Shown piece by piece: positions 20,931 through 47,291 of a stretch of DNA of 64,000 nt. Each line of letters starts with the position of its first letter. Position 1 is the first letter of the stretch. Both the position numbers and the translations under genes were made by a program. The notes beneath the pieces are model-generated. The model was given only the letters and a program-made list of their open reading frames with translations. It had not been told where the DNA came from and did not search any database. The DNA comes from Callorhinchus milii. Its lineage: Eukaryota. The stretch is taken from contig NW_024704742.1 in the NCBI RefSeq assembly GCF_018977255.1, forward strand, positions 119,104,001 through 119,168,000. Reading direction: 5' to 3'.

Positions 20931-21014
20931 GGTTAGGCGATTAAAAGAAGGTGAGAACATATCATTGCAATATTTTAAATAATAATAAAAAAATAATCCT
21001 TACATTTGAAATGC

Positions 21015-21539: not shown

Positions 21540-21541
21540 TG

Positions 21542-22775: not shown

Positions 22776-24257
22776 ATAATGTAGTGACTGTACATTTATA
22801 GGCAAACTCATAGTGCAAACATAAACTGCGGAATGCGGAAAGCTGGCTTCTAATTTTAAGACCATTGTTCCTCGTAAATTGTAAAAAAATTGCGCAACCA
22901 AGTTTGGTTTGACAGGCATGTGTATTTCTGCAAAAGTTTATGTTGCAAGGTGTTTGTAACTGGTAATGTGCTGATCACTCTACTGTTATCAAGAGAAGTG
23001 CTTTTTCAACTCCATTGTTGCNTTTTTTTTAAATTCCAAGTGTCAACAGTGATAAATGTTATATCTTCTATCTGATGCTAAATTGTTACTGAATATTCAA
23101 ATCATGTCTCTCAAAGCTTAATATGCATATATTTAATGTATTGTAGGAAGTAAATCTGCTTAATTTATCTACTAATGGTCTGGTCTGATTGTGAGCGATG
23201 GCCAGTGGTGAGTTATCTAGTCAGGTCACATGTGGAGACATAAATCATATCTCTACACTCTAACACTTTCCCCTACTCCCCCTGTCATTGTACTGTTTTG
23301 TAATATTCTGTAGATTATTTGTTCAGTGGGGGAAGTTTTTTTTTGCCAAGAACAGTCTCGATCTAGTTTAAATGTTCTTTCCCAGTGGAGCAGGTATAGA
23401 TTTACCACTTATATGGGCATGTAATCCCATTTTCTAGTATTATTTTAAAATGCTTTTGATAGAAAGCAATGTGGGCAAGTAAAATAAGGAAAGATAATAC
23501 ACGGAAAAATGACATTGAAAAAGATGTGACCAATTAAGCAGATGGGCCAAGGAATGACAGATGGATTTTACAGTAGATAAGTGTGAGTTAATGCATAATT
23601 GAAATGGAAACAGTAAACATGTGGACATGATGAAGGGATGTCCATTAGTAGGGTTGGAGAAAAGGGTTTGGGTGGAATTATTGATCCATATCTGAAGATT
23701 TCCGGTTAATGCAAAACTGTTCTCAATAAGCTAATCAAAATCTAGGTTGCATTCTGACACCATATGACTGCAAGTCAAAAAGTTATTATTCACTCATATC
23801 GATCATTGTGGTCAACCTGCAATGTGCAGAAACTCATGCTTCACGAAGAAAGAACATTTAAATTAGATAGAAAGGATAAGCAGCCATTTGGGTACAGTAT
23901 TGAAGGCTTTAAAGGGATAGATGCATCCTAAAATGAGACTAGGGTTTCTGTGTCACTAAGAATATCGTCTGTGGGGGAAAGCAGATTGCGTTGAATTGGT
24001 GATGGAAACACTTCTTGTGATTTGTTTGTGAAGGTTTAGGGAATGTCTATGTCAAGCTTTTTCCCAGGAGGTAGAAAGGGTAAGGTTAAATCCCCCATGG
24101 ATTTATTTTTCATAGAATAGACATTTTTAGGCAATCATGAAAACACAAACTATTTAATCTTTTTTTATATACATTCCATTTGGTCTTTATTTGCATGGAT
24201 GTGCAGGTAGAATCAATGGGCCAAATAGCCTTTTTTTGTTCCATGCTTCCATGTGTT

Positions 24258-24720
24258 ATAATGATAATCCTTGCATCTGATATTGTATTTTTCAGGCTGG
24301 GAAGACGTCTCAAAGTGTTTCACAGGATATATTGTCATATAATAATAATGCTAATAATTCTTGCATTTGATATAGCACCTTGTCACCTCTTTGAGATGTC
24401 TCAAAGCGCTTCACAGAATATACTGTAAAGTGAATTGACTTCATATTTTGTGGGCGAAACGAAGCAATCAATTGCGCACAGCAGTGTCCCACAAACAGTC
24501 GTGGATTGAGTGACCAAATTTTTATTTTGACTTTTTTTAAAGGATTATTACCCCCAGAAAAGCGATCCACCAATTCACTAATAACCGGGTTGCTTAGTAC
24601 GAGGTAGGCAAAGGCGTGTGGAGTAAGAAAACTTTCCCAATATTTCATCCTGCCCAGGAATCGAACGCAGGGCCTCTCGCTTGTGAGGTGAGTGCTCAAA
24701 CCACTAATCTACAGGACTCC
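24258..24720 (-). mobile_element. Full-length older tRNA-Val-type SINE with doubled tail
   Basis: Minus head 'ggagtcctgtagattagtggtttgagcactcacctcacaagcgagagg...gttcgattcc' (CAC loop); two tails. Confidence 0.9.
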
Positions 24721-24779
24721 ACATACCTAGGAACTGTATATTTTGGATGCATACGTGTCAGTCGACTTGCAAATAGTTC

Positions 24780-24992
24780 TATGTCCCAGAAACAACTATG
24801 AAGTGAGTGACCAATTTTATCTGGGGAATTGTTGGCCATGACACTGGGAGAAACTCCCTTCTCTTTTTGGATAGTGATATGGGATCTTTAATTTCTACCT
24901 GAACAGACAGACAGGACCTTGTTTTAATGTCTCCTCTGAAAGATGGTATCTCCAACAATTCAGTACTTCCCCAGCGCTGCACTGAAGTGTCA
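24780..24992 (-). mobile_element. Deu-SINE core fragment
   Basis: 'attgttggccatgacactgggagaactcccttctc...gggatctttaa'. Confidence 0.8.
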
Positions 24993-25812
24993 TTTTAGAA
25001 TAGAGGTTATTCAGTGATTGTGGCGAAAATTCTGCATTAACTGTTTAACGTACCAATCCTCTGTATGCACTTGCAATATTGATTTAGTACTGTGCAAATT
25101 CGAAGTTATTCCTTAGAGATTATTTTATAATTTTGCATAAAGGAATAGCAAATATGAAGGAATTATTGTTCCTATACAGTATTTTCAAACTACAATCATT
25201 CAATATCTAAGAATTGATTGAGTATATGAGTGACCACCCTGAAGTTATAATGGTTAAAGGTTTCTTGAGGTCAGTGGAATAGATGGGAAAAACTGTGAGT
25301 TGTGAATTACTGTGTTATATGAAGTACAAGAGGCTGCCTTTAGCCTCGATAGATTACACTGGTTGACCATCTATTGATCACAAACTGGCAGGAGCCATAA
25401 TCCGATTAGAAGCAGTAAAACTGCTTTCTATATCTGGAGACTGACTCACATTTCAGTGTGTGGGAAAGAATGACATCACCCTGGCTGCATCTGTTTTTTT
25501 AACCTAATGAAATTAGAGGATGGGTTTGAATACCATAAAAGTCAATGTTGATCCTTATTACTGTTAAGAATCCGCTCAAATTTACTGCATGGAGTGACAG
25601 GCTTGAAAGCATAATTTTTCATAGATGTGTGCCTTGCATTGCTTAGCAGAAAGCAGGTCAGTGGAATCAAGATTTAATTTAACACCCATCAGATGACAGA
25701 GAATATGGCGTTTTACTGTAGTGGAGTTGCTGATTATTTCTCTGCAGCAGCAGTTCTACGATGTGCCTTTAGGAATTGAATGTCAAATGTTTTATTTTTT
25801 GGAAAAGAAAAA

Positions 25813-26037
25813 TGGGTGGAAATTCTACCTGGTCTAGATTTGCTCTATTTCAGAACACCCATAATTTGGCAAATTCATAAATTTACCAAATTGTAGATGT
25901 TATCAAATAGAGCAAATCTTTAATTTTTAAATTATTTTTTCTATAGGTTCTATTAAGAACTACAAGAAACAGGCTTTAAAATTAAATTGGAATTCAACAA
26001 TTTGCCAAATTCTGAAATGCTATGTTAATAGAGTAAG
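25813..26037. mobile_element. Palindromic MITE-like element, related to 62560-62956
   Basis: Perfect 15 bp inverted repeat agatttgctctattt/aaatagagcaaatct; 25955-26036 resembles the reverse complement of ~62587-62678. Confidence 0.65.
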
Positions 26038-27939
26038 GTGGTTTGTTAAAAAATAAATTAAACCGTTTATTTTTACATACAGAGTATTTCAAATGCATAA
26101 TGCAATTTGACATAAATCCAATAAACTTGTTCATACAGACTAGATGAAATAACCATCATCAGGAGGGACCTAGAATATGATAGACATTGGCACTATTATG
26201 TTAATAATATCATCATGTAGCAAGAGCGTTGCCACTTCCAATACTTTATTATGCTTTTATTTTGATATAGTTAGACAAAAAATATAATTTAAAAGCACTG
26301 TGTAATCTGCACATGAGATAGTCCAACATTGTTAAGTACTTAGATTTGCTTATGACACTACAATAACAACACAATTATCTTTATAAAGGCAAATGAAGGC
26401 ACAATCCATAATACAGTTCGACATAGGAAAAACTATGGTCCACAATTTACACGTGATATAATAAGACTGTTAAGTTGAGTTGTTGATGGTTAAATTTGAT
26501 GAGCTTTTCAGGTTTCAATTTCTACATATTTCCAAATAAGCAGAGTCTTTAAGTGGGATCTCATTTGGGGAATTTCTTAATAAGAATTCCAGGATAAAAA
26601 TGCAGCATGTGATGTGATATCACTGGTGATAATTATCACATTGAGTAAAATTGCAGTCAAAATACTCAACCACTGCAGCCAGTCAGATAAATATTGATTG
26701 GTATGATGGGAATTTTAGTTAATATAATTATCATTGGTGATAATTTCACACCACCCTCCGCCCGATAAAATTCCCATTGACCCATGGAAACTCTGATCTG
26801 GAACAAGATCACGCCAGAATGGAATTCCCTACCATAGATCTGGTTACTAGGAACAGTTCCCCATTTACGCAACTTAGAGTCATCCACTGGGCCACCCAAG
26901 AATGTGCAAAAGACCTATTGGGAGTAGAGCTCGGAATGACATGTTTGTACTGGAGAGTTGGAATACCAGTCCAGCTAAAGCTATCTCCTCATGGTGGCCT
27001 CAGCAGTAAGGTTTGTGTCAATCTATTCTAAATCTCACTGTTCAGTGTCAATTTATACTTTGCCTTTTGCAGCAAATTGTCCCAAAAGTCAAATCTAATC
27101 TGTATAAATAGCATTGATTCGTGAAACTCATTCCATCTACTTTGCTTTCTTTTTTGAATTAGTTACCCTTGTTAATAAAAAAAGCTGACACGTTATTCAT
27201 TGCGTATTCAACCCCAGTCGACAGAAATAATTTTTTTCTGGAATATCATGGAGAATTAGGAACAGTATTATTGATGAGAAGCAGTTTAACGTGATAACAT
27301 CTATCTACAAAAAGCATCAAGCTAAATATTATGAAGAAACCGAATGATCCAATGGCAAGAGGTAATTGAAAGTCACATGGAACATGATGGTCTCTGAGAA
27401 TTGAATCCTTGGGAATGTCATATTGAGGAAGACAACTTGTCAAGGACATATAGGACAAGATGTAAGATTGGGTAGTGCGCTTGAGATGACCTCCCGATGT
27501 GAAAGCTACTATATCAATACAAAATCATTGTTGTTTTTGTAGGCATTCTGTTTCCAAAAAAAAAGCTTTCAAATTAAAAACAATCATTACATTTCATATA
27601 TCGTCTATCATGTCAGGGGGATATACTGTTTCACAGGATATACTGTAAAGTGTAATGACTCTGTATTTTGTAGGTGAACAGACCCCACAAATTACAATTG
27701 AATTTAAGAATGTTCTAAAATTCTGCACCATTTTGAATTTAAAGACAATGGATTCTCTTAATGCTAAGACCATTGTCTCCTGCTTTTCATTCATATTATC
27801 TCTAAAAGGAGCTGTAAATTTATCTTACAAAGAAAATCTGACTCTTGGGCTCTTTCCTTTGTTTAATGCAAATAAAACTTTTCTGTGGCTAGTAGGTGCA
27901 TTTCTTACTTGTCCACCTGCAACGTCTATTGTACTCGGT

Positions 27940-28355
27940 AGTTCAAGTTTAAGATCCTCATCCTAACCTTTAAATCCCTACATGGTTTTAACGCATCGAA
28001 ACTCTAGTACCTCCTCAAACTCTACATACCCAGTTTCTCACTCTGCTCAGCTGGCACTGACCTGCTTCACATCTCCCACCTCACCCATCCCATCATCAAT
28101 GGTCAGGCTTTCAGCATATCTGCTCCCATCCTCTGGACCTGCATTCCAGAGCCTCTTTGACTTGCCCCTTCCCTCGCATCCTTCACAGTCTACCTTAAGA
28201 CCTTCCACTTCAACCCCACGTTCGGCTATCTTTTACCCCCACCTTTGCACCCCCTCCAGCCCCACCCCAGCTCAGGTGCAATCTTAGACAGTCCAGTGCC
28301 TAGGGATGTCCTCCCTATATGAAAGGCGCTATATAAATGTAAATTTGTATTGTAT
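27940..28355 (+). mobile_element. L2 3' fragment
   Basis: 'tttaagatcctcatcctaacctttaaatccctacatggttta' (FKILILTFKSLHGL) and L2 tail. Confidence 0.85.
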
Positions 28356-28597
28356 CCTATTGTACATTTGCACCATAAATGTAATCCATTGTTGTTTAGG
28401 AGATGCCCCTCTCTTGCCTCTGTATTTCAGATTTAAATTATAGTACCATATATTGAAATTGTGTTTTATCATTCAATTTGGGCATTTTCAGTAGTTTACC
28501 CCTAGACAGAGCTTCTCTGAAGTTGCTGTAGGGAAAGCAGACTTAAGATTACATGCATGGCCAGCCCTAAGGCATTACAAGGATCTCAAACTATAGA

Positions 28598-28681
28598 TAG
28601 ATGTGCTGGAAACACACAACAGGTCAACCGGCATCTGAAAGAGAAAGATAGGTTAACATTACGAATGACTCTTCATCACAA
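28598..28681 (-). mobile_element. Probable Penelope-like terminal repeat remnant
   Basis: 'tgctggaaacacacaacaggtcaaccggcatctgaaagagaaagataggttaac' resembles fish/shark Penelope-type terminal repeats as I recall them; hammerhead-like core is degenerate. Confidence 0.5.
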
Positions 28682-29466
28682 TGCCAATCTTATCTGCTCC
28701 GTGTATATTGATGATGACGGGGCTGGTAAAAGGATATTGCAACTTTTTGTTACCAGTGAGATAGTAGGTTATTCACTACTTCATATATATTAATGATGCC
28801 CAGTTAATCGGTTCACAATCAAACATTTTCATGTGGTATTGAAATCCACAGGGAGTCTGCAACAGAATAATTCCATACAACATTTTAGGTGGTAGATAAG
28901 GACACTGATGCAGTAAAACTGTATTAATGCTTACTACAATACTGTTGAAAACATGCAATAGTACAAGGTGATATTACACTTATTTTCGACATATTTTTAT
29001 GTCAGGTCCTTGTTTAATTTGCTATTAAGTTTCAGAACATATTTTCCCCTCCCCATTCGTCCACAAAACACAGTTACTACATATAGTAAATCCTGAGAAG
29101 CTCTTTGAGATGTTTCCCTGACATGAAAGTATCAAATATGATTTTTGTTCCCCTTTCATAGCTTGGGAATGAAGAAATTCTGGGCAACTATAGTTGGTGG
29201 ATTTCCTTCTCTCCTAATGAGTAAATTGAAATTTCTAAACTGAGCTACAAAGGACCTGCAGTTCCTTCATCTTATAAGCTTCTCAGTAATTGAGCTTGAG
29301 GTACAGATCAGCTATGATCTTATAGAATGGCGGAACAGGCTTGAGGGGCTGAATGGCCTGCTCCTGTTTCTATGCTTCTATGTTTCTCAGTACGGTCAAG
29401 TAAATTCTAAATTTGTAATCTAAAGAAGAGAAAGAATGAACAAGTCATTCTGCATTACTATGCAAT

Positions 29467-29712
29467 CAAAGATCCCACAGTACTATTCAAAAAGAGAAAG
29501 GAGTTTGTCCCATTGTCCTGCCCAACAATTCCCCAGATAAAATTGGTCACTCGCTTCATGGCTGTTTGTGGGACATTGCTGTGCACAAATTGACTACTGT
29601 GTTCGCCTGCAAAATACACAATCACTACACCTTACAGTAGATCATGTGAAGCACTTTAGAGATTCTCAATGACATAGAAGGCGCCATATCAAATGCAAGT
29701 ATTATTATTGTT
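29467..29712 (+). mobile_element. Deu-SINE 3' half
   Basis: 'aaagatcccacagtactattc...ggctgtttgtgggacattgctgtgcacaaattg' and tail. Confidence 0.85.
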
Positions 29713-31007
29713 AATGCTAATACTATCACCCCACTAGATGACTGCAGACCCTTCTAGTAAGTGGGCACTTCCCTTTCAGATGCTAGCATCAGACATTTTT
29801 CTATTTTGAAGCAAATGTTTTTTGTTTTGTAACTTGTAGGCCCTACAGTGGCCTTTGAGGTATTTTTCTAGTTTATATTTTATCCATAGTTCATCTGCTG
29901 AGGATAATAATAAATATAAAAAAATAAAATAAATATTTTGCCAATGGGCCTGGAGGCTTTGGCCTTCAATATGTAAAACATTATGCAGTTATTTGTTAGT
30001 TGTTAAGCACATTTATTTATAAGTTGGCAAAACTTACTAAAAAGAGACAAAATAACACTTAGCCAACATCAGGAAACTCACTACATGGAGAGCACAAACT
30101 GAATAAACCTTAGATATCTAACTGCACTGTGTTAAAATTTCAGAGACTTGTAATGTTATCTGAATCAACTAAATTCGCCCGCAAAATATACAATCAATTC
30201 ACTTTACAGTATATTCTGTGAAGCACTTGAGACGTCTCGAAGACGTGATGAGGCGCTGTATCAAATGCAAGGATTATTTTATTATTATTTTAATTCACAT
30301 CATTGGGTTTAGCATTTGATTCAACTCTTATCACTGACTGTATGCTTGCAATTTGGAGAATTTTGGAATAAGATCTTTGAATAGCCTGCTATCAAATCCC
30401 AGTTTTGGAACTGGTATAGAAAATAATAATAATTTCTTGCATTGATGTATCAAGAGGCTGTGTCAAAGTGGTTCACAGGATTTACTGTAACGTGCAATGA
30501 CTCTATTTTTGGAGGCAACTAAGTATAATATAGTAGGTAATAATAAGTATAGTATTGTATTTAATGATACATAATATTCCAATTATGTCACTGACCATCT
30601 CTGATTACAAACCTCTAAATGTGAGTACAAATCGTTTTACAAGAACATCCTTCTACCCCTTCAACATGGATGCTAATCTTTAATAATATTGTATAGACTT
30701 ACAATTTAGCGATTTAATGACTCAAAGATTTTATGCTACAGAAAGGAGGTTTCGTTTGCAACTGTTACACAAATGTAAATTTCCAATGCTCGCCTTCTGA
30801 AGTTTAGGTATTGGGTTCTATTAATTCAGTTCTGTGTACCATATGTAAATGCAACAGTCAATTATGCGAGTTGGGCAAACAATTTGTAAATGATTGTATA
30901 CAGAGGGAAATACAGAAGGAATTCCTATAATAGACTCCACTGACCACTTGTCTAACCTCATTAATGGAACCTATTTGAAGTGCTTCTGGTGGCATATACA
31001 TCTGGGT

Positions 31008-31390
31008 GTCAGCCTTGCACAGTTTGTAGCACTTTCACCTATGAGTTAAAAGGTTGTGGGTTCAAGCCCCAAGTTTGAATTCATGGTCGAGGCTGACATT
31101 CCCATGCAGTGCTTGGTTGAGACTTTAAACCAAGGTTTTGTTCAGGTGGATATTAAAAAATCCCATGGCGCTATGCAAAAAGAGAAGGGAGATTCTCCCA
31201 GAATCTTGACCAATAATCCCCCAAATAAAATTTACTTCATAGCTATTTGTGAGCCATTGCTATGTGCAAATTGGCTGCTGCGTTTGCCTACAAAACACAG
31301 TCACTACACTTCACTATACGACCCTGCAAAGCACTTTGAGACATCTCGACAGCATGATAAGACACTATGACAAAGGATCATTATAATTAT
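31008..31390 (+). mobile_element. Deu-domain SINE with internal deletion
   Basis: 'aaggttgtgggttcaagcccc', 'ggctgacattccc', core and tail. Confidence 0.8.
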
Positions 31391-31409
31391 TTTGCCCTAC
31401 AATTCTGAA

Positions 31410-32080
31410 TTCAAATTCCTGTTGGGAGCAGGAGCTGCAGGCACCTCTACAAATGCCAGATGTACATTTTGTGCAACAACACAAAGCCCTGCAACAATGT
31501 CCACTTATGTGGTTTAGATCTGTGCCAAAGTACTTGCAAAAAGTGGAGCAAATTTCTTAACTATTTCAGCTGAACTATTTCGTAACGTGCATCACCTATT
31601 TCTAATGACCATTGTCTACTGTGAAATAGGCTTCAAATGCTCCAAGGCTGTGGTAGTAAATTCAGGTTTGAAAAAATAAAATGAAATGGTACAGCTTTTT
31701 ATTTTTATATATATTTTATAGCAGGTTTCAAGCCACCGAAGAACAATTATGCGCAATATGTTCTGCCCAGGCTGCAAGGTGCTGCTACTGAGAGAACAGG
31801 GAAGAATGCGTCTCACTGTGAATGACATAATGCACTAAAAAAAGATGGTGATGTAATGCAGATCTGAAAATCCAAAGAGGCTTCCTTTTCCAAGTCAGAT
31901 GTACAGTATGTAAAGCTGTTGCCAGCTCAGCGAACATGTTAAGGACAAATGTATACCTTTATTAGCAGCCCTTTACCTTCACTATGAGAATTTCTCCTTC
32001 AGATTTCACTGGAGAAGTAGTTACTTGTTAATATGTACAAGATTCTTTGTGAGATGTGCATTTAATGGGAAGGATCAATG
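31410..32080 (+). repeat. Local duplication copy 1; near-identical core 31725-31981
   Basis: Aligns to ~35500-36210; core has 9 substitutions and no indels over ~256 bp. Confidence 0.95.
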
Positions 32081-32446
32081 ACCGCAAAGGTCTTTTCTGA
32101 GCATGTGCCTTTCTGTCTTCCTAATGATATATAAAGAACTTGCACTTTTTATAGTCTCTCATCATGTCAGAAGTTGATAAGTTGCTTTAAAACTGCTTTG
32201 CTTATACTTGCTGTCAAGTGTAATGACTCTTTTTGCTTGTAGAAGTGGCACCTATTTGCACCAGCCAAATTCTGCAAACAGTCATAAATGAGGTGAATGA
32301 CCAAATGACCAATTAATCTGCAGGATGTTTGGCTAAGGCACTTAGGGGAGGGAAGAACCTTCTCAAACGCTGAGTATCTCCTCTCTACCCCCGGCTAAGT
32401 GCCCAACTAGCAGGGTAAATGTAAATTGTATTGTAACATGTATTGT

Positions 32447-32815
32447 AATGATAATCCTTGCATTTGATACAGTGCATTATTATGTTGTGCCGTCTCAATG
32501 CTCTTCACAGGATTTTATTGTGAAGTGTAGTGCCTGTGTATTTGCAGATGAATGTAATAATCAATTTGCATACAACAATGTCCCACAAATAGCCATGAAG
32601 TGAATGAACAATTTTATTTGGGTAATTGTCGGCACAAAGAAACTCCATGGGTATTATATTGCATTGGATTACATTGCGTCATAGGGTCTTTAAAACACAA
32701 TTGAACAAGTAGACAGGACCTTGCTTTAACACCTCATCCAAAAGTTGGCATCTCCGACAATGTAGCATTGTCCCAGAACTGGACTGGAATGTTATCCCAG
32801 ACTATAAATTCAATC
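32447..32815 (-). mobile_element. Deu-SINE, degraded
   Basis: Tail 'ataatccttgcatttgat' and core. Confidence 0.75.
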
Positions 32816-32927
32816 TCTGTTACCACAAACAAGAGTTCTCTGCGACTGAAGGTTACATCTCAATGTCTCAACCTTGATCATAATGGGATTCATTCTACTC
32901 CGTTCGCCCTGTGTAGCAAATTTGTTA

Positions 32928-33350
32928 ATAGTAATAAATAACAGTTGCATTTGATACAGCACCTGTCAAGTCAGAAGGATGTCTGCTTCTCAGAATTTAC
33001 TATAAAATGCAGTAACTGCATATTATGTAGGTGAATGGGGCAGCCTCTTTTTGCATAGCAGTGTCCTACAAACAGAAATGAAGTGAATGTCGAACATTTT
33101 ATATGTGATCCTTGGTCAGGGCACTGGGAGAAATTCCTTTCTTTTTTTTGAATAGTTCCATAGAGTGTTAAGGTTAGGGTTAATCCCCCTGAACAGATAG
33201 ATTGGGCCTTGGTTCATTGTGTCATCTGAAGGCACCTCTAGCAATGCAGTGTTTCCCCATTTTGTATTGTTGTGCCTGTGAGTTTAACTCCTGTCAGGGG
33301 CTTGATTCCACAACCTTGCAAGAGAGTTACCAACTGAGCCAGACTGACTG
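32928..33350 (-). mobile_element. Deu-SINE, near full length
   Basis: Tail, core, and head 'gttaccaactgagccag'. Confidence 0.8.
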
Positions 33351-33922
33351 ATATGTGCTATTCTGCTTTCTCCTCTGTTTTGTGAATTTGTCTCTGTTCA
33401 CTCTTAAATAAGTAATGTAATTTTAGAGTTTGCCTCGTTGAATGGCACTCTTGCTGGTGGGTCAAAAGGTTGTGGATTCAAAGCCCACGTTGAGTTCATT
33501 GTCTAAGGTGACACTCCACAGCCGAACTGGGAGAACGAAGCATTATTGGAAGTGCCATTATTTTCGATAAGATGTTAAACTGGGGCCTGACTGCCTATCC
33601 TCAAGACGTGGATGGTCAAGTGGAGGTGTAAAAAGGAGCCCATAAGTGATATTTGAGCCTAAACTGGGGAGAGCTGCATTATCTTTTGGATGATATATTA
33701 AACTGAGGTTTAGTCTGCTAGTTTCTGGTTGGACTTTAAAACTCACATGCAAAAAGAGAAGAATTCCTTCTGATGTCCCCAAAATTAATTGTTCATTCTT
33801 AGTGATTTGCATTTATGTAGCGCCCACCAGGTCGGGGTTGTTTCTCAGAGCACTTAATAGTGGCGGAGCTTGAAGCTGAGCCAGGGAGAAAGGGGAGGGG
33901 ATCAAGGGTCAAAGTCTTCATG

Positions 33923-34244
33923 TAATAATAATAATAATAATAATCCTTGCATTTGATATAGCGCTTTTCACGTTGGGAGGACGTCCCAAAGCGCTTCACA
34001 GAACACACTGTAAAGTGAATTGACTGTATATTTGTGGGCGAACGCGGCAGCCAATTGCGCACAGCAATGTACCACAAACAGTCGTAGATTGAAAATGACT
34101 AATTTATTATTGTTTTTTGTTTTGGAGGGATTATTATTAGGCGTGGGAGTAAGGAAACTTGCCCAAGGTTTCGCCCTGCCTGGAATTGAACTCAGGTCTC
34201 TCACTTGCAAAGCGAGTGCTCTAACCACTGAGCTACAGGACTCC
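33923..34244 (-). mobile_element. Young tRNA-headed SINE (TGC-loop subfamily) nested in an L2
   Basis: Nearly identical to 38860-39169, 44931-45259, 46721-47037, 55405-55730; (TAA)n tail; no TSD seen. Confidence 0.95.
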
Positions 34245-34249
34245 ACGTG

Positions 34250-34700
34250 TGTGACAGAAAGGGTGGGGCAAGGCGGAGGGATTGAGACAGAGAGTTCCAG
34301 AATCTTGGAGCATAGTGGCTGAACGACCAATGGTGGAGTGGAGGGGAAGAGGGATGTCCAGGAGACCAGAGTCAGCTGAGCAAAGGGGATGGGTAGAGGA
34401 GTGGGGTGTAAGCAGGTCGGACAAATAGGGTGATGCCAGGGTATGAAGTGATTTGTACATGATTGTGAGGATCTTGAAATCGATCTGTTTTGAAATAGGG
34501 AGCCAGTGGAGCCTGGCAAGGACTGGGGTGATGTGGTATGGAGTTAAGTACAGTTGAGGATATGGGCAGCAGAGTTTTGAATTAATTGGATTTTATGAAT
34601 GGTGGAACTGGAGAGATCGGCAAAGAGGACATTGGAAAAATTAAGGTGAGAGGTGATGAATGTGTGGATAAGGGTTTCAACTGTGTTAGGTGTGAGGTAT
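34250..34700 (-). mobile_element. L2 ORF2 C-terminal fragment; its tail lies at ~33805-33920
   Basis: LFQNRSISRSS / MYKSLHTLASPYLSDLL frames and 'cactggctcc' (HWL) motif. Confidence 0.85.
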
Positions 34701-35499
34701 GGCGTGTGCTCTGGAAGAGGTGGAGGAAAGGGATCCTAGTTAGGAACCAGATTGGGAGGGATTGATGTCTAGCAGAGTGGGCACAAAGAATTTTTAGGAT
34801 GAGGAACAGATTACTTCAAGTGGCTTTTGAAGTCATGTGCATTATAATACCTAAAAAGAATTAGATAAACACATAAAGGCTAAAGGATGTGGGGAAGGGG
34901 AAGGATTACTAGTTAGCTTCAATGTGAAGCAAACACAGCACGAGCATGATAGGCCAAATGGCTTCCTTATAAGTGAATTTTCTAAATGTCCAACATGATC
35001 TATTGCTCATGACTCATGTCTTTGGCTTTAGAAGATTAAAAAAAGAATCTAATGAAGGATTCTCTTTTTGATCTGCCAATGTGTTTCTCTTTCTCAGGGA
35101 AATTTATTTCTGTCTCACCCGAAAGGATACATGTGCTGTGCACATAGAAATCCACATCAAGGGTTTCACTTATTGCCACAGATCTCAATCAGATCAGATA
35201 TGCAGCCCAATCCCGAGAAACATTTTGCTTCAATTGCTGATTCTTCACTGTAGGTCTTACTTGAGGTTATGGCTTCGATGGCTGTGCAGGCATTAGTGAC
35301 ACAGATGCACCCTGCTAGGCACCAATCCCTCCTGGCCTCTCAATATACCTTTGCTATTTCTCCATTCCGTGACCTGACTTCCAAGATCAGAGCTTTTCTA
35401 GTTGATGGCTTAAGGGGACAAAGCTTGGAATTTTACTGGACCAGTCTGTTCTCACTGACAATGTGTACGTGCAGTACTCCTGATGGTAGATGTGTCTTG

Positions 35500-36210
35500 A
35501 TACAAATTCCTATTGGGTGGCAGAAGCTGCAGGCATCTTTGCAACTGACAGGTGCATATTTCTTGCAGTAACATTAAGCCCTCCAACAACTCATCACGTG
35601 CACTTATGTGGTTAGACCTGTTAACAGTGACAATATGCTTCTAAAAAAAAGTAACTGTTTCACCTGAGTCATCTGTTCTTTATGACTATTATAAAATAGG
35701 CTTCACTTGCTCCAAGGCTGCACAAGTAATTCACGTTTCAATCCGTGAAAGGAAACATTGCAGTTTTATTTTTATTTTTTTTGGTACAGATTTCAGGCCA
35801 CCGAAGAGCATTTATGCGCAATATGTTCTGCCCAGGCTGCAAGGTGCTGCTACTGAGAGAACAGGGAAGAATGCGTCTCACTGTGAATGACATAATGCTC
35901 TAAAAAAAGATGGTGATGTAATGCAGATCTGAAAATCCAAAGAGGCATCCTTTTCCAAGTCAGATGTACAGTACGTAAAGCAGTTGCCAGCTCAGCAAAC
36001 AGGTTAAGGACAAATGTATACCTTTATTAGCAGCCCTTTACCTTCAGTAGGAGAATTTTCCCCTTAGAAAACAGCTGTTTAAATAGGAGGGAGTTTGTAG
36101 TTTTTACACACTGAGAAATAGTCATTGCTTTCTAGGTGCTTGATTTTGTAGGAGATGTGTCAGGATTTAAATTTCCTGAAATGAGTATTTATTCCTGAAG
36201 CATCAATGGT
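35500..36210 (+). repeat. Local duplication copy 2; near-identical core 35790-36046
   Basis: Core offset 4065 bp from copy 1; begins after 'ttttatttttatttttttttggtacag'. Confidence 0.95.
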
Positions 36211-36223
36211 ATTGGGCAAATGT

Positions 36224-36559
36224 GGAGTCCTGTAGCTCAGTAGTTAGAGCATTCGCCTCACAAGCGAGAGACCAGGGTTTGATTCCCGGGCAGGGTGAAA
36301 CGTTGGGCAAGTTTCCTTACTCCAAACGCCTCTGTTTACCTAGGCAGTAAGTAGGAATCCGGTCGTTAGTCGACTTTTCCAGGGGTACTAATCCCTTTTT
36401 TTAAAAGTTTCTTGTATTCTGATTTACAATGACTCTTCAATCATTTTAATAATAATTTGCTCCCAAAATATACCGTCATTCCACTTTACAGTATATTCTG
36501 TGAAACGTTTTGAGACGTTTCGACGATGTGATCAAATGCAAGGATTATTGTTATTATTA
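36224..36559 (+). mobile_element. Older tRNA-Val-type SINE (CAC loop, long body)
   Basis: 'ggagtcctgtagctcagtagttagagcattcgcctcacaagcgagagaccagggtttgattcccgggcaggg'; retains 'tctgtttacctaggcagtaag' segment. Confidence 0.9.
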
Positions 36560-38859
36560 CCCCAGGGTTATTTTGAATAATCTCATGTTCTTTAACAGTA
36601 TCTACTATTTAATTTTGCTTTTCATATTGATGCATTTTAAGATAATCTACCTGCATTTTCATTTCCCTCAATCCCTGCTCTCTCCAGAAATGGATCTTCT
36701 CAATTTCTACTGTGGTATAGAAATGCACAAGTTATAGCTTGGATTCACAAAGAATTCATAACTGTTGATTCCTGTCAGTAACCGGAATTGGGTCACAGCA
36801 ACCCATGAGGACTTCCCTCTGACACACACAGAAGGAGATTGCATTGCAGTAGATTTTCTGTGAATGCACTTCCAATTGCTGGCAGGATCCAGTATTTTGG
36901 AAAACATTGTAAATCCAGACAATGTCTCCCATGTTTTAGACTTCAATGTCTATTTCATTGGTAACATGATTGCTTATTCCATAAGTATGTGTGTAATAAT
37001 GTTTCTTCTGATTTGCTGTCTTACACTTAGCTACCATACTAAACAAATTGTGCGAATTAAATTAAATTAAATTAGCCAATTTCTGTCCAGTTGGTTTGGA
37101 TACCAGTGTATTCTTTTGAGTAAGAACCGAGGTGTAGATTGAAGAGTAACAGAAAAACATGAGGTTAACAAGCAGTTAGGTGATGCCAAATGAGGGAGTC
37201 AGAGAAGCCATAGTAATGCTAAAATAGAAAGAAACATGGAGGATTAACATGAGGGAAGAATTATCTATCAGACTAGGAGTCTCTTCTTGTATTCTAATAA
37301 TAATAATCCTTATATTTGATATAGCATCTTATCACATCATGGCAACATCTCAAAGTGCCTCACAGAATTTGTAAAAGTGTAGTGTTTTTGTAGACTCTCA
37401 CAGTAGTCCATTTGCATACAGCAATGTCCCCACACATTGCCATGAAGTGAATGACCAGCGTTATCTGGGGATTGTTGCCAAGACTCCAGGAGAATTTTTT
37501 CCTTGTCAGTAATGTCATGTGATCTTTACCATCCATATCCCGGCCACAATCCCCTAAATGACATTAGTCGTTCACTTCATGGCTGTTTGCGGGACTTGAA
37601 GTGGGCAAATTTGCTGCTGGGTTTGCCTACATTCACTACATCGTAATAGTAATTCCTATGAATCGCTTTGAAACATGGTATGGTGCTCTCAATCTATTAT
37701 CAAATACAAGAATTGTGTTATTATAAACTTGGTAAAATCTCCAACTAGTGGAGAATAAGACACACTCATCTGCCAATCTCACTATATTTACTGAGAGAGG
37801 AAGAGTCATCGTCTTTGTGACCCATCTTTGCATAAACTGCAGGACCACATCCTAACATCTGAAAATTGGTTGCAAGTAGAAAACATCTCTTGTGACTATG
37901 TGCCGAAAAATACATTCCACAAATAAATCTCTCCAGGCAAAATAGTTTTGAAAATTGACCCTGGGGTTTATTAGAATGCCAACTCTATCTCATGAGACAT
38001 AACAGACTCCTAGATAGCTGTGACTCAGAAACAGCAACATTTGGGCTGTGTTGTGACCACGTGAAGAAATAATTTCAATGAATTGATTTTACTATAAACT
38101 ATGACATAAAGAACAGGAAGGATTGACTGATCATTAGATTATTAACCCGTTCGTCAGCAAAATGAACCAAATGCCTCGGAGGTCATTGATCTCTTCTGAT
38201 ACTTAGGGTTTCACTGCTGTTCGCCTTCTCTGAGCCGTCAATAAAACAAATGAGTGTGCTGTTCTGTAAAGAAGCTATTAAACAGTCTTAGTTCAATAAT
38301 GCCTTTGCTGATTTAAAAAAAATCTTTATCATATTAACAAATTCATCAGATCCTGAGGTTGAAGTGACAAAAACAAATTGATTGTGAAGAATGGGCTACT
38401 GATTACTGGAGGACAATAAGTTTGTGGGAAAGGAGGCGGAGGACATGTCACAAAACCTTTGCAACTATTGTACTCGCACTAACTTCTCCGTCCTCTGTTG
38501 CGCCTCTGAGTAAATACATTTTAAAATGCTGTATAACATGGCTTCACCCCCCAACTCAGAACGTAAGAGTTGATTCTCAGTTAAGACAAAAGTGGCCCTT
38601 CAGGGGCTTATGTCAAAATTTGTGATAATAATTCCATTCAAAACAGCAAATAATTTAACAGCTGTTGACAAGATTGATCAAACCAAATGTCACCTCCACG
38701 AATGATTGTGGCCATTGAATAAAATGATTTTAACCTCTGAAAGAAAGGTCTTTTGTTTAACACAATATGTGTCTTTATGCCGAATGTCAGATTCCTGTCA
38801 GTGCTAGCGCAAACAGAGGCCTGAAATTTCTCATGGTCTTAGCCTTAAGGCCTTAACTT

Positions 38860-39169
38860 ATAATAATCCTTGCATTTGATATAGCGCTTTTCACGTTGGG
38901 AGGACGTCCCAAAGCGCTTCACAGAACACACCATAAAGTGAATTGACTGTATATTTGTGGGCGAACGCGGCAGCCAATTGCGCACAGCAATGTCCCACAA
39001 AGAGTCGTAGATTGAAAATGACCAATTTATTATTGTTTTGGGGTTTTGGAGGGATTATTATTAGGCGTGTGGAGTAAGAAAACTTGCCCAAGGTTTGGCC
39101 CTGCCTGGAATTGAACTCAGGTCTCTTGCTTGCAAAGCGAGTGCTCTAACCACTGAGCTACAGGACTCC
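38860..39169 (-). mobile_element. Young tRNA-headed SINE (TGC-loop subfamily)
   Basis: Near-identical to the other four young copies. Confidence 0.95.
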
Positions 39170-40424
39170 ACATTTTAAAACAATTGAAAACATCCACTGC
39201 AAAGATCTCCTTGGATGGGAAGAATGGTGTACCTGATGAACCAAGATCTCCATCATCTGAAGCAAGGATAATGCAAAGCTCCCCAGAAGCATGTCAGCCT
39301 GGACTCTGAACTCAAATTGACAACAGGGAGCATGAACCCACTAAAAGGTGCTCTAACCACTTAGCTACAGGACTCCACTTGTCTTAAAATTCAAGATTTT
39401 AAGATGTGCAGATTTTTGAAATTTTTTTAAATTTGTTCTCAATTTGGAGAATCTTTGCATTTGAAAGAGAACTTTCTGCCGTTCTTTTTAAGGCCAAAAT
39501 AAAGTTTATTCTAATTGAGAAACCAACACCAGGAGAGGCTTTTGTTTTTGAAATCCACTTTGGGAAAATATAGGTAAATATTACTCAAAGAAAAAAAAGA
39601 AACAGTATAAGGAAAAGAGACTTATTTTATATTTAATATATACAGTGTTCAAGTAAATTGCAGTTCTGCATTCAGATATGAAACATAACCAAATAATGGC
39701 TTTCTGAAGATCTTTGGTGGTATTGTTTGAGGCAGAGGAATGCTCAAAAGGCTTCCTGTGTATGACTGATACTCGTGTTTTTGGCGAATGGGACAAATAC
39801 TGGGGAGTTTCTACCACAGACTATGTAAAGACAGTTCAGTTAAACCCAGGGAAAGTGCAGAGCAGTATGACGATTGTGCTGAGTCAGAAGGCTGAAACCA
39901 CTGTGACCCTGATCTGGCAGTTGTACGATTGAATCATTCTGTGTTTTATACTGCAGGAAATATTTTTAAGAATAGAAATAATCCTTACAATTGACATAAC
40001 ACCTTATCAAGACTTTTCACAGGATTTACTGGAGGGTTTATTTGTAGGAGAACACATTAGCCAATTTGTGCACAGCAATATCCAACAAGACGTGAAGCTG
40101 TGACGTGAGTGACAAATTTGGAGGATGAAATTTAATTTGCTTTAGAATGGAACTTGCATTATTCCATGACTCTTGATTTGCAATATTCACAAAAGAACAG
40201 GATTTATAAACAGCAAATCTTGGATGTGTCACAAGTGATACTTCGAACTCAGCCTACAAAATGCACAATCATGCTACTTTTCAATGTATTCCATGAAGCA
40301 CTCTGAGGCATCTTGGCGATGTGATATGCCGCTATATATAATGCAAAGATTATATTATGGCAAGTCTCCGATCAGCATCTGAGTGGAGTGGATAGGCCAC
40401 AGCATTTCTGGGATTTGGTGTTTA

Positions 40425-40860
40425 TAATAATAATCCTCACTTTTATTATAGTGGTTTCCATATCTCAAAAACATCTCCGAGTTAAGTTACAAGATATACT
40501 ATAAAGTGGAGTGATTGTGTACCTTATGGGCAAATCCACAGCTAAAAAATTGCATACAGTGATGGCTCGCAAACAGCCCTGAAATGAATGACTAATTTTA
40601 TTTGGGGAATTATTGGCCAGGACACTGGGAGAAAATCTTCACTTTTCAAAGAGTACCATGAGATCTTTTGAAATGGCAGAGGGCACATTGGTTTAATGTC
40701 TCATCCAAATGATGGCACCTTCAACAATGCAGCGCTTACTCTATCACTGCATTGAAGTGTCAGCTGAGACTATTTGAGTTTCAAGTGCCAATGTGAGGCT
40801 CAAACCCACAGCCTTCTAACTCAGAGCTCAGAGTACTTCTGACTGATCCAAGCTAACACT
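40425..40860 (-). mobile_element. Near full-length Deu-domain SINE
   Basis: Tail, core 'ggtttaatgtctcatccaaatgatggcacc', and head. Confidence 0.85.
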
Positions 40861-41837
40861 TAGGAGTTGATACTAAGTCATTCCTGCTTTTTTTATATAA
40901 CAAAATGTGAAAAACAGTTTCCAAATTAAAATTGAATTGAAGAATTTTCCAAAATTCTGCACCACCATACATGTTAAGACAGTAGTCTTAAGACTAAGAC
41001 CATAAGAAATTTGGAACATCGGAAATGTTCATGCTTTTGTTGCCCAGTTGACTACCCCTGGCTTATCTGAATGCAGTGCTACTCGTAAACTGAGAATTGA
41101 ATTAGAATACATTAGGGGTCATCATTGAACTCAAACACTTCCTGTCCTTAGCTTCACTATTAACATACCTTAGAAATTTGGCTTTCTGCCATTCAGACAG
41201 GATAGAGGCAATCAGTCAATGAATAAAATATGATTTCCTTTAGAAATCTATGACTTCATATCTAAATCAAATTAATTTGCAAAGCCTATTTCAATGCAAT
41301 GACTGGATACCAAGGTACCTTTGTATCTGTCACTGCACTGATTATGCCTACAAGATACACAGTCACTACACTTTACAGTAAATCCTGTGAAGTGCTTTGA
41401 GATGTCCTCCCATCGTAAAAGGCCATATAACGAATGTTGCTCCAAGTGTGCTGATTGACCTTCGCTACTCTGCCCAAGTGTCCAGTGTTCATGTGTGAGA
41501 AACTCTTAGCAGGGTTCTCACCATTTCTCAAATGCTCTTGTTATGATTCTGGTAAAGACTAATGAGGGACCAGAAGCAATAACCCCAATTGATTTTAGCC
41601 TTCTTAACCATGGAATGGCTGGAACCAATTTAGCCTCCCCATGCAGAGCTGGCTGAGATCAGTAAACTTAGCATTCGAACCAGTGAGCTCCAAGTCCGTA
41701 AATTACAGTGCTACCCTTTACACCATCAGGGCTGCCAATTGCAATGTTTTTTTTACAAATTCGATACCACATTTCAACACCACATTAAATCTATGAGGAA
41801 ACATTACATTTCACCTGTTTTTTTTTGATTCCCTGGC

Positions 41838-42096
41838 AGGTGAAATCTTACTCCACACTCCTCTGTTTACTTAGCAGTAAGCAGGAACCCTAGTTGTTAG
41901 TCGATTGGTGGATTGCTTTATGGGGGTAATAATCCCTTAAAAAAATACTAATTTGGACACTCAATGACTGTTTGTGGCTGCCACATTTCGCCCACAAAAT
42001 ATACAGTTAATTCACTTTACAGTATATTCTATGAAACTTTGAGACGTCTCAACAATGTGATAAGGCGCTATGTCAAATGCAAGGATTATTATTATT
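41838..42096 (+). mobile_element. Older tRNA-Val-type SINE, head largely lost
   Basis: 'ttactccacactcctctgtttacttagcagtaagcaggaacc' and tail. Confidence 0.85.
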
Positions 42097-42872
42097 TGGA
42101 GAGGGGGAGAATTGAGATGTGATTGTTGGAATATAAATTGAGCAATAAACGAATAATATTTAATTGCATCAACACTGTGTGTCTTTCTAACAGTTTTCCA
42201 TGATATCTCCTGAGTCTATTTCTATTTGTTACAACCAGAAGTTGCTTTGATACAGAAATGTGTAACTGGTTTGTTCCTGCTGAAACAGCTTTAATCTAAA
42301 GTGCTGTGGATATTGCATCTGTGTGTGAAACGGGATTGGCAGGTCAGTCTGGTTTGCTCCATTGACATGTGGAAAGCAGCCAATTTTAATGCTATTATTA
42401 AGCAACTGACACTTCAGGACATCTGCCATTCATAGGCTTTGCATATCTCACAGATATGATGCATATGCTACCCTCAGGGTTACACATTTTGCCTTTGCAG
42501 TCCATTTGTACATTACATACATTTTGGTAAAGGTACATAGAAAGTCCAGGATGCTCTGTTACAGTGATGTAAGCCTTACAGAGAAAATAGCCATCCTATT
42601 CTGTCTCTTCTTAAACAGTGAAGTATGTCATCTCAACATAGCGACTCACACGTATATTGTGACTTTCACCTAAAAAATGTCACAAAGCATTTCACGTAGA
42701 TGGAGTGGAGTCCTGAATAGGTTGGGAGATGGGGGTTGGGGGTGGGGGGAGGAAGCAGGTGCTCGAAAGCACAGTCAAAGAAAGAGATAAATGTCTTTGG
42801 GGGAGGGGGTGTTGAAAGCAAAAGAGAGGGAGTGAGGCGAAGGGATGAAGGAGACAGTTCAAGAGAGGGACA

Positions 42873-43101
42873 AATAATAATAATAATCCTTGCATTTGAT
42901 ATAGTACTTTTCACGTCTTCTAGACGTCTCAAAGCGCTTCACAGAATATACTATAAAGTGAATTGACCGTATATTTGTGGGTGAAACGCGACAGCTAATT
43001 GCGCACAGCAGTGTCCCACAAACAGTCGTGGATTGAAAATGACCAATTTATTATTGTTTTGGAGGGATTATTATTGTGGAGTAAGGAAACTTGCTCAAGG
43101 T
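42873..43101 (-). mobile_element. 5'-truncated tRNA-headed SINE, short-body intermediate type
   Basis: Lacks the internal segment like the young copies but keeps older diagnostics ('agaatatact', 'gtggattg'). Confidence 0.9.
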
Positions 43102-43459
43102 TAAAAACTTGTCCATGATTCTAGAAGCAGAAGGGACCTCGGTTTAATGTGTTATCTGAAGGACGGCATCGCCAACAATGCAGCACTGACCTATCACTGC
43201 ATTGGAGTGTCAGCCTCGATTATGAGCTCAAGTTCCAATGTAGGAGTTGAACCCACTAACCTTCTGACTCAAGAGGCAAGAGTACTACCAACTGAGCCAG
43301 ACTGTACCATTCTGCAGATGAATATTGAGAGTGAAATTTCACCCTGCCTGTCAGGAGGATGTTAAGGGCCCTATTTGTAAAGAGATGGAAGTTTCTTCTG
43401 ATAGACTGAACATCAATCCCTCAAATAAAATTGATCATTGATTTCATAGCTGTTTGTGG

Positions 43460-43692
43460 GATTCGGAGTTCCTCTGCCTCGGCCCTCTCCTCCCCTTCTT
43501 CAAGGTTCATCTCCAGACCTTCCTCTTTGACCGTGCCTTCTGTCAGGTTTCCCCCCACACGCCTCTACACCCTCTGCCCTCCAACCCTCTTGATTCGAAT
43601 CCCCAGCTCGGGGGCAAATCCTTGACTGTCCAGTGCTTCGGGGCGCGCTAGCAACATGAATGGCGTTATATAAATGCAATGTGTTATTGCTG
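43460..43692 (+). mobile_element. L2 3'UTR and tail
   Basis: 'ttcctctttgaccgtgccttc' ... 'ggcgttatataaatgcaatgtgttattg'. Confidence 0.8.
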
Positions 43693-44930: not shown

Positions 44931-45259
44931 ATAATAATAATAATAAAAATAATAATAATAATCCTTGCATTTGATATAGCGCTTTTCACGTCGGGAGGAC
45001 GTCCCAAAGCGCTTCACAGAACACACTGTAAAGTGAATTGACTGTATATTTGTGGGCGAACGCGGCAGCCAATTGCGCACAGCAATGTCCCACAAACAGT
45101 CGTAGATTGAAAATGACCAATTTATTATTGTTTTTGGAGGGATTATTATTAGGCGTGTGGAGTAAGGAAACTTGCCCAAGGTTTCGCCCTCTGCCTGGAA
45201 TTGTACTCAGGTCTCTCGCTTGCAAAGCGAGTGCTCTAACCACTGAGCTACAGGACTCC
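44931..45259 (-). mobile_element. Young tRNA-headed SINE (TGC-loop subfamily)
   Basis: Near-identical to the other young copies; long (TAA)n tail. Confidence 0.95.
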
Positions 45260-46545: not shown

Positions 46546-46720
46546 CCCCAGATTTCAATTGAGTTTCCCAATTTGCAAATGGTTTCTGGCTGTTAAGGAT
46601 GAATTATCTGAACATTGAAATATCCGCCTCAGAGCCAAAAGTTTGTGAATTTAAGACCCACATTAGCCGAGGATGATACTCCAGTGAAATGATGGAGATG
46701 CCAAATGAGATCTGATTGTT

Positions 46721-47290: not shown

Positions 47291-47291
47291 G

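What the first reader, a model, noticed from the sequence alone, without database searches (positions are those of the whole stretch)
31410..36210. Old local duplication with a near-identical, sharply bounded, exon-like core
Seen: ~31410-32080 aligns to ~35500-36210. The flanks are indel-rich (roughly 65-70% identical by eye). The core 31726-31981 vs 35791-36046 has 9 substitutions and no indels in ~256 bp, including an invariant run of ~85 bp. In both copies the high identity starts right after a polypyrimidine tract plus AG (ttttatagcag|G, a NAGNAG site; tttttggtacag|A). I match it to no repeat family in the window. In one frame it reads FQATEE(Q/H)LCAICSAQAARCCY* (stops at 31789 and 35854), where 2 of 3 differences are synonymous; in the other two frames all 3 are non-synonymous. 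Inference: duplicated alternative terminal exons with a Cys-rich tail, duplicated ncRNA exons, a duplicated enhancer, or recent gene conversion. Three sites are far too few to prove coding selection.
Basis: partly seen in the sequence, partly recalled or inferred. Interest (0 to 1): 0.72.

Follow-up and report, generated by a model that had tools for sequence, protein, structure and literature searches.

The report
Non-coding twins kept alike by conversion
Two old neighbouring copies of a short DNA stretch with no protein match in a chimaera fish share a nearly identical 256-base middle, likely because the copies have kept overwriting each other (gene conversion) separately in several related species; this is a known process, and no function for the stretch is shown.

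Summary
31409-31993 and 35500-36058 are homologous. The core has 9 differences in 256 bp with no indel, while the 5' flank differs at 23% of aligned columns. Contigs of three related organisms decide between selection and conversion (40 of 74 difference rows shown). Organisms B and D hold both copies. At 31905 and 31934 (B) and 31954 (D), both of their copies carry a letter that neither window copy has. In the core's 3' part, other species differ about as much as in the flanks (9-10%), yet the window's two copies differ at only 5 of 107 sites. That is concerted evolution by interlocus gene conversion. The coding-exon idea is not supported: no protein match, no + strand poly(A) signal, the first AG of the NAGNAG is lost in B and C, and the window appears intergenic (SLC30A5 to PIK3R1, from earlier notes). 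The 5' part of the core may be mildly constrained (3.5-4.3% against 9-11%; p 0.06-0.09). The scan found this pattern before on other DNA of this genome (e1-9080229, e1-8165910). Ordinary mechanism; function open.

The parts
31409..31725 (+). Copy A, 5' flank: old paralogous sequence that no longer tracks copy B
   Evidence: 23% mismatches and 12 gap events against 35500-35790; only 8-11% different from its orthologues in organisms B, C, D
31696..31725 (+). T-rich tract ending in TAGCAG at the left edge of core A: acceptor-like, or a slippage barrier
   Evidence: 18 T in 30 nt; crude acceptor scores 5.9 and 4.2; first AG lost in organisms B and C (31720 A>G, G inserted after 31718)
31726..31981 (.). 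Core A: homogenised tract
   Evidence: 9 of 256 differences to core B, no indel; species-specific letters shared by both copies in relatives
31726..31870 (.). 5' part of core A: possibly under mild constraint (candidate anchor)
   Evidence: 4 of 114 different in organism B over 31757-31870 vs 15 of 164 in the flank, p 0.09; 4 of 92 in D over 31813-31904 vs 17 of 149, p 0.064
31875..31981 (.). 3' part of core A: diverges between species like the flanks but stays alike between copies
   Evidence: window paralogues 5 of 107; D's B-type contig 11 of 107 against copy A; C 14 of 153 plus a 4-bp insertion
31982..32003 (+). Right edge of core A: short decayed tail, then a 34-nt indel relative to copy B (candidate barrier)
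   Evidence: alignment; B-type contigs of B, C, D stop aligning to copy A at 31981-31993 (tables 7 and 8)
35500..35790 (+). Copy B, 5' flank, ending in a T tract plus CAG
   Evidence: crude acceptor score 11.4
35791..36046 (.). Core B: homogenised tract, 4065 bp downstream of core A, same orientation
36047..36058 (+). Copy B, short decayed tail
   Evidence: BLAST end at 36058; B-type 3' flank seen as loose ends in 4 of 4 runs laid (table 7)

Best explanation
Two same-strand copies of a roughly 600-base stretch lie 4065 bases apart, likely from an old tandem duplication in intergenic DNA, and their shared 256-base middle is likely kept alike by repeated two-way gene conversion while the ends have escaped. 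Shown: the copies, the sharp identity step, both copies in organisms B and D, and letters shared by both copies within a species but not between species. Inferred: the duplication is at least about three times older than the split from these relatives (paralogue flank distance 0.27-0.35 vs orthologue flank 0.08-0.11). Conversion tracts stop at the indel-rich T tract on the left and near the 34-nt indel on the right. A net conversion rate of about 15-60 times the mutation rate, or 1-2 overwrites per site per lineage since the split, is enough to hold 3.5% divergence. Whether a constrained element in the 5' part of the core anchors the process is open (my odds about 0.35-0.4).
For: One search showed 40 of 74 difference rows; 8 fall in the core. 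(a) Both organism-B contigs carry T at 31905 and G at 31934, where both window copies have A. Both organism-D contigs carry C at 31954, where both window copies have T. These are type-C sites in the sense of Osada and Innan (PMC2588116, passages). (b) Organism B has one contig over 31841-31898 at depth 75.4, against 36-41 for single-copy contigs, with 3 differences to copy A. The window copies differ there only at 31882, so at least 2 more type-C sites are inferred. Parallel mutation predicts 0.09-0.36 such sites: P(>=2) 0.004-0.05, P(>=4) <=5e-4. (c) None of the 8 core rows shown is a copy difference shared by the window and organism B. The window's copy differences at 31917 and 31937 are not copy differences in B or D, whereas 63-76% should be shared without conversion. 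(d) Over 31875-31981, D's B-type contig differs from copy A at 11 of 107 sites (6-12 from copy B by my arithmetic), like D's flank (17 of 149, p 0.84). C's 3' core is 14 of 153 vs 14 of 179 in its flank (p 0.70). The window's paralogues differ at 5 of 107, against about 24 expected at the flank rate (P 3e-7; P 0.006 at half that rate). (e) Even the strongest constraint the counts allow predicts about 20 paralogue differences in the core without conversion, against 9 seen (P 0.004). (f) Comparing B with D, letters appear to have crossed in both directions: 31905 is B-type only in D and in both copies in B; 31934 is A-type only in D and in both in B; 31954 is B-type only in B and in both in D. 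(g) Length and edges fit the literature: minimal efficient segment about 200 bp (PMC3924818, passages); conversion lasts until substitutions or indels break pairing (PMC3924837, passages); decay starts from the edges (PMC2588116).
Against: Only 40 of 74 difference rows were printed and no full orthologue sequences were obtained, so no tree was built and 31909 and 31932 could not be classed. D's contigs have depth 2.4-5 (their letters do match the deep B and C contigs). 31931 and 31960 are copy differences shared by B and D, and the contig end at 31776 suggests that 31746 is a copy difference in B too, so homogenisation is patchy. Organism C is ambiguous: one contig with the A 5' flank, one with the B 3' flank at 2.3 times its depth. 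In my toy model a purely neutral island with decayed flanks arose in only 0-13% of 60 runs per setting, against up to 48% with a constrained 145-bp anchor (a first set at lower rates gave 0%). Conversion alone may therefore not explain the persistence; the parameters are arbitrary.
Confidence: 0.85

Rival explanations
1. Conversion plus a functional anchor: the 5' part of the core (about 31726-31870) is a duplicated enhancer of PIK3R1/SLC30A5, or an acceptor-led exon of an unannotated + strand non-coding transcript. Selection there keeps identity high enough for conversion to continue and spill into a neutral 3' part. This is a sub-case of the best explanation.
For: 5' part diverges 3.5-4.3% between species vs 9-11% in the flanks. 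A T tract plus CAG sits at the left edge of both copies. The right edge lies at 31981-31993 in the window, B and D. The toy model gives such islands more often with an anchor. The human PIK3R1-SLC30A5 interval holds a cartilage-thickness variant, and the paper places linked variants of nearly all its loci in chondroblast or osteoblast regulatory regions (PMC5049763, passages); no homology to this element was tested.
Against: Neither test is significant (p 0.09 and 0.064) and they share the window's branch. Whole-core constraint is undetermined (core/flank ratio 0.3-1.3 over the possible placements of unprinted rows). The acceptor region changed in B and C. Boundary-like motifs also occur on the - strand (donor score 8.3 at 31977/36042; AATAAA at 31698 and 35765-35776), so a motif at an edge is weak evidence.
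Confidence: 0.35
2. Duplicated coding alternative terminal exons encoding the Cys-rich tail FQATEE(Q/H)LCAICSAQAARCCY, with the rest of the core as 3' UTR.
For: Acceptor-like site at the edge of both copies; 2 of 3 copy differences synonymous in this frame and none in the others; lower between-species divergence in the 5' part.
Against: Three sites share one codon phase by chance 1 time in 9 (my arithmetic). No Pfam family at cut-off for 10 of 10 core frames. No PDB match. The single hit among 1.84 billion proteins is a repeat of a bacterial-type secreted protein that does not match the cysteines. No AATAAA/ATTAAA on + within 31726-32700 or 35791-36800. No second duplicated unique piece was found upstream or downstream. 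No Pfam hit at cut-off in 333 of 333 ORFs tested. The neighbours placed by earlier notes imply that SLC30A5 reads away on the - strand, which leaves no + strand host. D has a 1-bp insertion after 31735 (depth 2.4, may be an error).
Confidence: 0.06
3. Purifying selection alone: two copies of an ultraconserved-type element evolve independently and slowly.
For: Sharp edges and no indel between the copies; 5' part slower than flanks.
Against: Type-C sites; no shared copy difference among the 8 core rows shown; 3' part diverging at the flank rate between species; a 4-bp insertion in C.
Confidence: 0.05
4. Unrecognised transposable element or assembly homogenisation.
For: The genome-wide copy number in the window's own species was not counted (no genome held).
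Against: At 80% likeness only 8, 2 and 4 contigs were laid in B, C and D, at single or double depth in B and C. Flanks are homologous and orthologous. Both junction types occur in independent runs.
Confidence: 0.04

Closest known systems
Conversion-degeneration of duplicated blocks in Drosophila (Osada and Innan 2008, PMC2588116; passages read)
   Same: Pre-speciation local duplicates with type-C sites, a high-identity middle and raised paralogue divergence at the edges.
   Different: Their blocks carry genes and span a few million years (recalled). Here no gene was found, the tract is only 256 bp, and it has probably lasted since the Jurassic if B-D are other holocephalan families (crown age 173 Ma, 95% 148-214; PMC11521621, passages).
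Concerted evolution by non-allelic gene conversion (Fawcett and Innan 2011, PMC3924837, passages; Mansai et al. 2011, PMC3924818, passages; author names recalled)
   Same: Equilibrium paralogue divergence set by mutation and conversion; needs a few hundred similar bases (about 200 bp); favoured by short distance; ended by indels or insertions.
   Different: Usually described for coding genes; here apparently intergenic, with no selective reason shown.
Other non-coding converted pairs noted by this scan in the same genome (e1-9080229 near FRAS1; e1-8165910 between an endothelin and a PHACTR gene; AI notes, unchecked)
   Same: 250-430 bp non-coding cores near-identical within species, decayed flanks, no function shown.
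   Different: Those are inverted pairs (one 45 kb apart); this is a direct pair 4 kb apart with an acceptor-like left edge.
Duplicated mutually exclusive or alternative terminal exons (general class, recalled)
   Same: Tandem same-strand copies, each behind a pyrimidine tract plus AG.
   Different: No host gene, no protein homologue, no + strand poly(A) signal, only a weak shared donor, and identity runs about 190 bp past the stop.

Membership tests
Concerted evolution by interlocus gene conversion | Duplication older than the species split | tested here: met
   A-type and B-type 3' flanks both present in organisms B and D; paralogue flanks 23-28% different vs orthologue flanks 8-11%
Concerted evolution by interlocus gene conversion | Sites shared by both copies within a species but not between species (type-C), beyond parallel mutation | tested here: met
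   31905 and 31934 (B), 31954 (D) shown; at least 2 more inferred from a double-depth contig; expected 0.09-0.36
Concerted evolution by interlocus gene conversion | Tract clusters by species, flanks by copy, on a tree | tested here: inconclusive
   Site counts point that way, but only 40 of 74 rows were printed and no sequences could be taken out for a tree
Concerted evolution by interlocus gene conversion | Shared polymorphism between copies within a population | not tested
Coding alternative terminal exon | Spliced reads joining an upstream exon to the acceptor | tested here: inconclusive
   One search was swamped by repeat contigs; 15 of about 2605 joints were printed, none at these sites
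Coding alternative terminal exon | Host gene on the same strand and homologous protein | tested here: not met
   short exons under 45-50 codons were not scanned
Coding alternative terminal exon | Poly(A) signal downstream | tested here: not met
   No AATAAA/ATTAAA on + within about 1 kb of either core start; variant signals not searched
Coding alternative terminal exon | Acceptor conserved across species | tested here: inconclusive
   First AG lost and purines added in B and C; no change printed at the CAG (partial table)
Structured ncRNA | Rfam match or unusual folding | tested here: not met
   No gathering-level hit in either copy; best E 1.5 around copy A; z -0.06 (+) and 0.57 (-)
Conserved non-coding element / enhancer | Substitution rate well below neutral flanks | tested here: inconclusive
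   3' part not met (p 0.84, 0.70); 5' part borderline (p 0.09, 0.064)
Conserved non-coding element / enhancer | Enhancer activity or open chromatin | not testable with these tools
   No chromatin or reporter data
Transposable element | Many dispersed copies | tested here: not met
   2 copies in the window; 8, 2 and 4 contigs laid in B, C, D; the own genome could not be searched

The most novel reading that the evidence does not exclude
The first ~145 bp of the core is a functional element duplicated long before living chimaera families split: an enhancer in the PIK3R1-SLC30A5 interval, or an acceptor-led exon of a divergent non-coding transcript (a 54-nt AG-to-GT unit, 31725-31778 and 35790-35843, exists in both copies, with a weak donor). 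Selection on it has acted as an anchor that kept two-way gene conversion running for more than 150 million years in parallel lineages and dragged 110 bp of neutral DNA along. With the similar pairs noted elsewhere in this genome, long-lived non-coding conversion islands would then be markers of hidden regulatory elements in slow-evolving genomes.
Probability: 0.3. Interest if true: 0.55.

Novelty: new member of a known kind. Interest (0 to 1): 0.27.

Why it matters
As it stands this is a clean example of a known process. It warns that a near-identical, exon-looking duplicate core need not mean coding selection. Its modest value is the time depth and the lack of a gene: a short tract close to the minimal length for conversion seems to have stayed in concerted evolution in at least three lineages. 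If such islands need a selected anchor, they would point to unannotated regulatory elements. If they do not, they give a direct estimate of how long neutral conversion can last in a vertebrate.

Tried and rejected
No whole genome is held for this window, so there is no genome-wide copy count and no upstream-exon search outside the window.

Expression: no RNA holder was listed for 31560-32000. Four RNA-guess contig sets of the window's species laid on 24000-43900 were swamped by SINE contigs. The bin 35288-35951 had depth 0, 0.29, 0, 0, and none of the 15 printed joints (about 2590 not shown) touched the candidate acceptors. This is a hole in contig data and is not used as evidence. Run X14 turned out to hold a genomic-type copy B contig, not a spliced one. 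No run labelled beyond organisms A-D was listed; few words make this a weak search.

Protein searches: the MRNMF frame and the FRPPK frame against longer proteins gave no hit at E <= 0.1 (weak evidence by the tool's own note). The FQATEE frame gave one spurious hit. Pfam on ORFs in non-repeat DNA: 150 of the 178 listed for 18-50 kb at >=45 aa, then 150 and 33 at >=50 aa for the rest; none reached a curated cut-off. Six recalled zinc-transporter motifs were absent from the six frames. A crude exon scan found no convincing internal exon.

RNA families and folding were negative. No look-alike was found among earlier findings by sequence. Toy simulations have arbitrary parameters and are used only as a plausibility check.

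Paper searches for this locus or for non-coding conversion in elephant shark (listings and abstract starts only) showed no description of this element; the library lacks most subscription papers. No supplements were opened.
Full report
1. Observation. The window holds two same-strand copies, 31409-31993 and 35500-36058 (79% over 593 columns, E 4e-142), with no third copy in the window. The core 31726-31981 / 35791-36046 has 9 substitutions and no indel, and its longest identical run is 87 bp. The 5' flank has 63 mismatches in 276 aligned columns and 12 gap events (JC 0.27). The 3' side decays within about 12 bp and then needs a 34-nt gap. The step from flank to core is far beyond chance (p 1.5e-11). 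Independent runs hold copy A (0.97-1.00 of 40 words in four runs of one study) and copy B's core-to-flank junction (record 7), so this is not an assembly artefact.

2. Setting. About a third of the window is repeats, including tRNA-headed SINEs. Earlier scan notes, unchecked, name the genome as elephant shark. They place the SLC30A5 promoter 7 kb before the window, a cyclin B1 gene 57 kb before it, and a PIK3R1 internal exon 39 kb after it. I found no Pfam family at cut-off in 333 of 333 ORFs tested and none of six recalled SLC30A5-type motifs. I infer that the window is the intergenic stretch between PIK3R1 and SLC30A5, with SLC30A5 reading away on the - strand; the two genes are neighbours in human too (PMC5049763, passages). 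That PIK3R1 is on the same strand as SLC30A5 is recalled. No + strand protein-coding host for the proposed exons is evident. Short exons were below my ORF limits.

3. Relatives. Three other coded organisms (B, C, D) hold the locus; one run of each was laid on 31400-32200 at 80% likeness. Their copy-A flanks differ from the window by 8-11%. I take them to be other holocephalans (inference; crown age 173 Ma, 95% 148-214, PMC11521621, passages). B and D each have an A-type and a B-type 3' junction, so the duplication predates the split. By flank distances (0.27-0.35 vs 0.08-0.11) it is at least about three times older.

4. Conversion test. Of 74 difference rows 40 were printed, 8 of them in the core. 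At 31905 and 31934 both B copies share a letter absent from both window copies, and at 31954 both D copies do. A double-depth B contig over 31841-31898 carries 3 differences where the window's copies differ only once, which implies at least 2 more such sites. Parallel mutation would give 0.09-0.36. The window's own copy differences at 31917 and 31937 are not copy differences in B or D, and 31882 lies in B's collapsed contig. Without conversion 63-76% of them should be shared (P of 0 of 3: 0.014-0.05). In 31875-31981 D's B-type contig differs from copy A at 11 of 107 sites, the same as D's flank (p 0.84), and C's 3' core is 14 of 153 plus a 4-bp insertion (p 0.70 against its flank). The window's paralogues differ at only 5 of 107 there. 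This part is therefore not conserved across species, yet it is alike between copies. Comparing B and D suggests transfers in both directions (31905, 31934, 31954). Against a clean picture: 31931 and 31960 are copy differences shared by B and D; a contig end at 31776 suggests 31746 is an old copy difference; D's depth is under about 5; 31909 and 31932 could not be classed; and C is ambiguous (A 5' flank on one contig, B 3' flank on another at 2.3 times the depth, A 3' flank uncovered).

5. Mechanism. After a tandem duplication the copies, 4 kb apart, pair ectopically and overwrite each other. Pairing needs a few hundred similar bases (about 200 bp; PMC3924818). It is lost where substitutions and indels pile up (PMC3924837), first at the edges (PMC2588116). 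Here the left edge is an indel-rich T tract and the right edge lies about 20 bp before a 34-nt indel; I infer that these act as barriers. A divergence of 9 in 256 implies a net conversion rate about 28 times the mutation rate (95% 15-62), or 1-2 overwrites per site per lineage since the split. These steps are inferred; the site patterns are shown.

6. Is there a function? The 5' part of the core is slower between species (4 of 114 in B, 4 of 92 in D) than the flanks (15 of 164, 17 of 149), but neither test is significant (p 0.09, 0.064) and they are not independent. The T tract at the left edge is unusual (18 T in 30 nt in both copies; 0.25% of positions), and copy B's acceptor scores high on my crude matrix (11.4) while copy A's is middling (5.9, 4.2). 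B and C have lost the first AG of the NAGNAG. No + strand poly(A) signal follows. The - strand offers equally neat edge motifs, a donor at the right edge and AATAAA beyond the left edge, so edge motifs are weak evidence. None of the reading frames has a credible homologue. There is no Rfam match or unusual fold. In a toy model a neutral island with decayed flanks appeared in 0-13% of 60 runs per setting, and in up to 48% with a constrained 145-bp anchor (0% in the first, lower-rate set). This mildly favours an anchor but rests on arbitrary parameters. RNA contig data were uninformative (see Tried and rejected).

7. Comparison and verdict. It works like, and by the tests I could run belongs to, concerted evolution of pre-speciation duplicates by interlocus gene conversion. 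It fails the tests for a coding terminal exon, a structured RNA and a transposon, and is undecided as an enhancer or non-coding exon. Earlier notes of this scan describe two similar non-coding pairs in the same genome (unchecked), so the pattern is not unique. Searches (listings only) showed no paper on this element. New member of a known kind; interest 0.27.

Noticed in passing
window 31537-31581 (copy A 5' flank): In organisms B and C this spot is an inverted repeat: C's contig turns strand at 31538/31582, and B has a double-depth 38-bp contig whose loose end is the reverse complement of window letters near 31557-31566. The window keeps only one arm; copy B lacks part of the region. Possibly the relic of a small palindromic insertion.
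   Followed up: partly
organism C contigs laid on window 31582-31993 (records 1 and 2): A-type 5' flank and B-type 3' flank are seen, but no A-type 3' flank and no B-type 5' piece; depths 45.3 and 104.7. Could be a hybrid single copy from unequal crossover, conversion run on into the 3' flank, or filtered contigs.
   Followed up: no
window 33923-34246, 38860-39171, 44941-45259, 46720-47037, 55403-55730: Young tRNA-headed SINE family, about 320 bp, 93-96% identical between copies. One lies between the two duplicate copies; a more diverged tRNA-like head sits at 36226-36298, just past copy B.
   Followed up: partly
window 11645-11893 (+): Weak Pfam MH1 (SMAD) match, E 0.0006, below cut-off; no PDB match. 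Probably chance among 333 ORFs.
   Followed up: yes
window 31977 and 36042 (- strand); 31698-31703 and 35765-35776: A good 5' splice-site-like motif on the - strand lies 4-5 bp inside the right edge of both cores, and AATAAA on the - strand lies just beyond the left edge.
   Followed up: partly
window about 21000-22400, 34250-34620, 47000-47340, 59600-60360: Decayed LINE-like fragments whose translations share a LARLHWLPI-type motif; the LINE assignment is recalled, not tested.
   Followed up: no
window 23022: Single N in the sequence.
   Followed up: no
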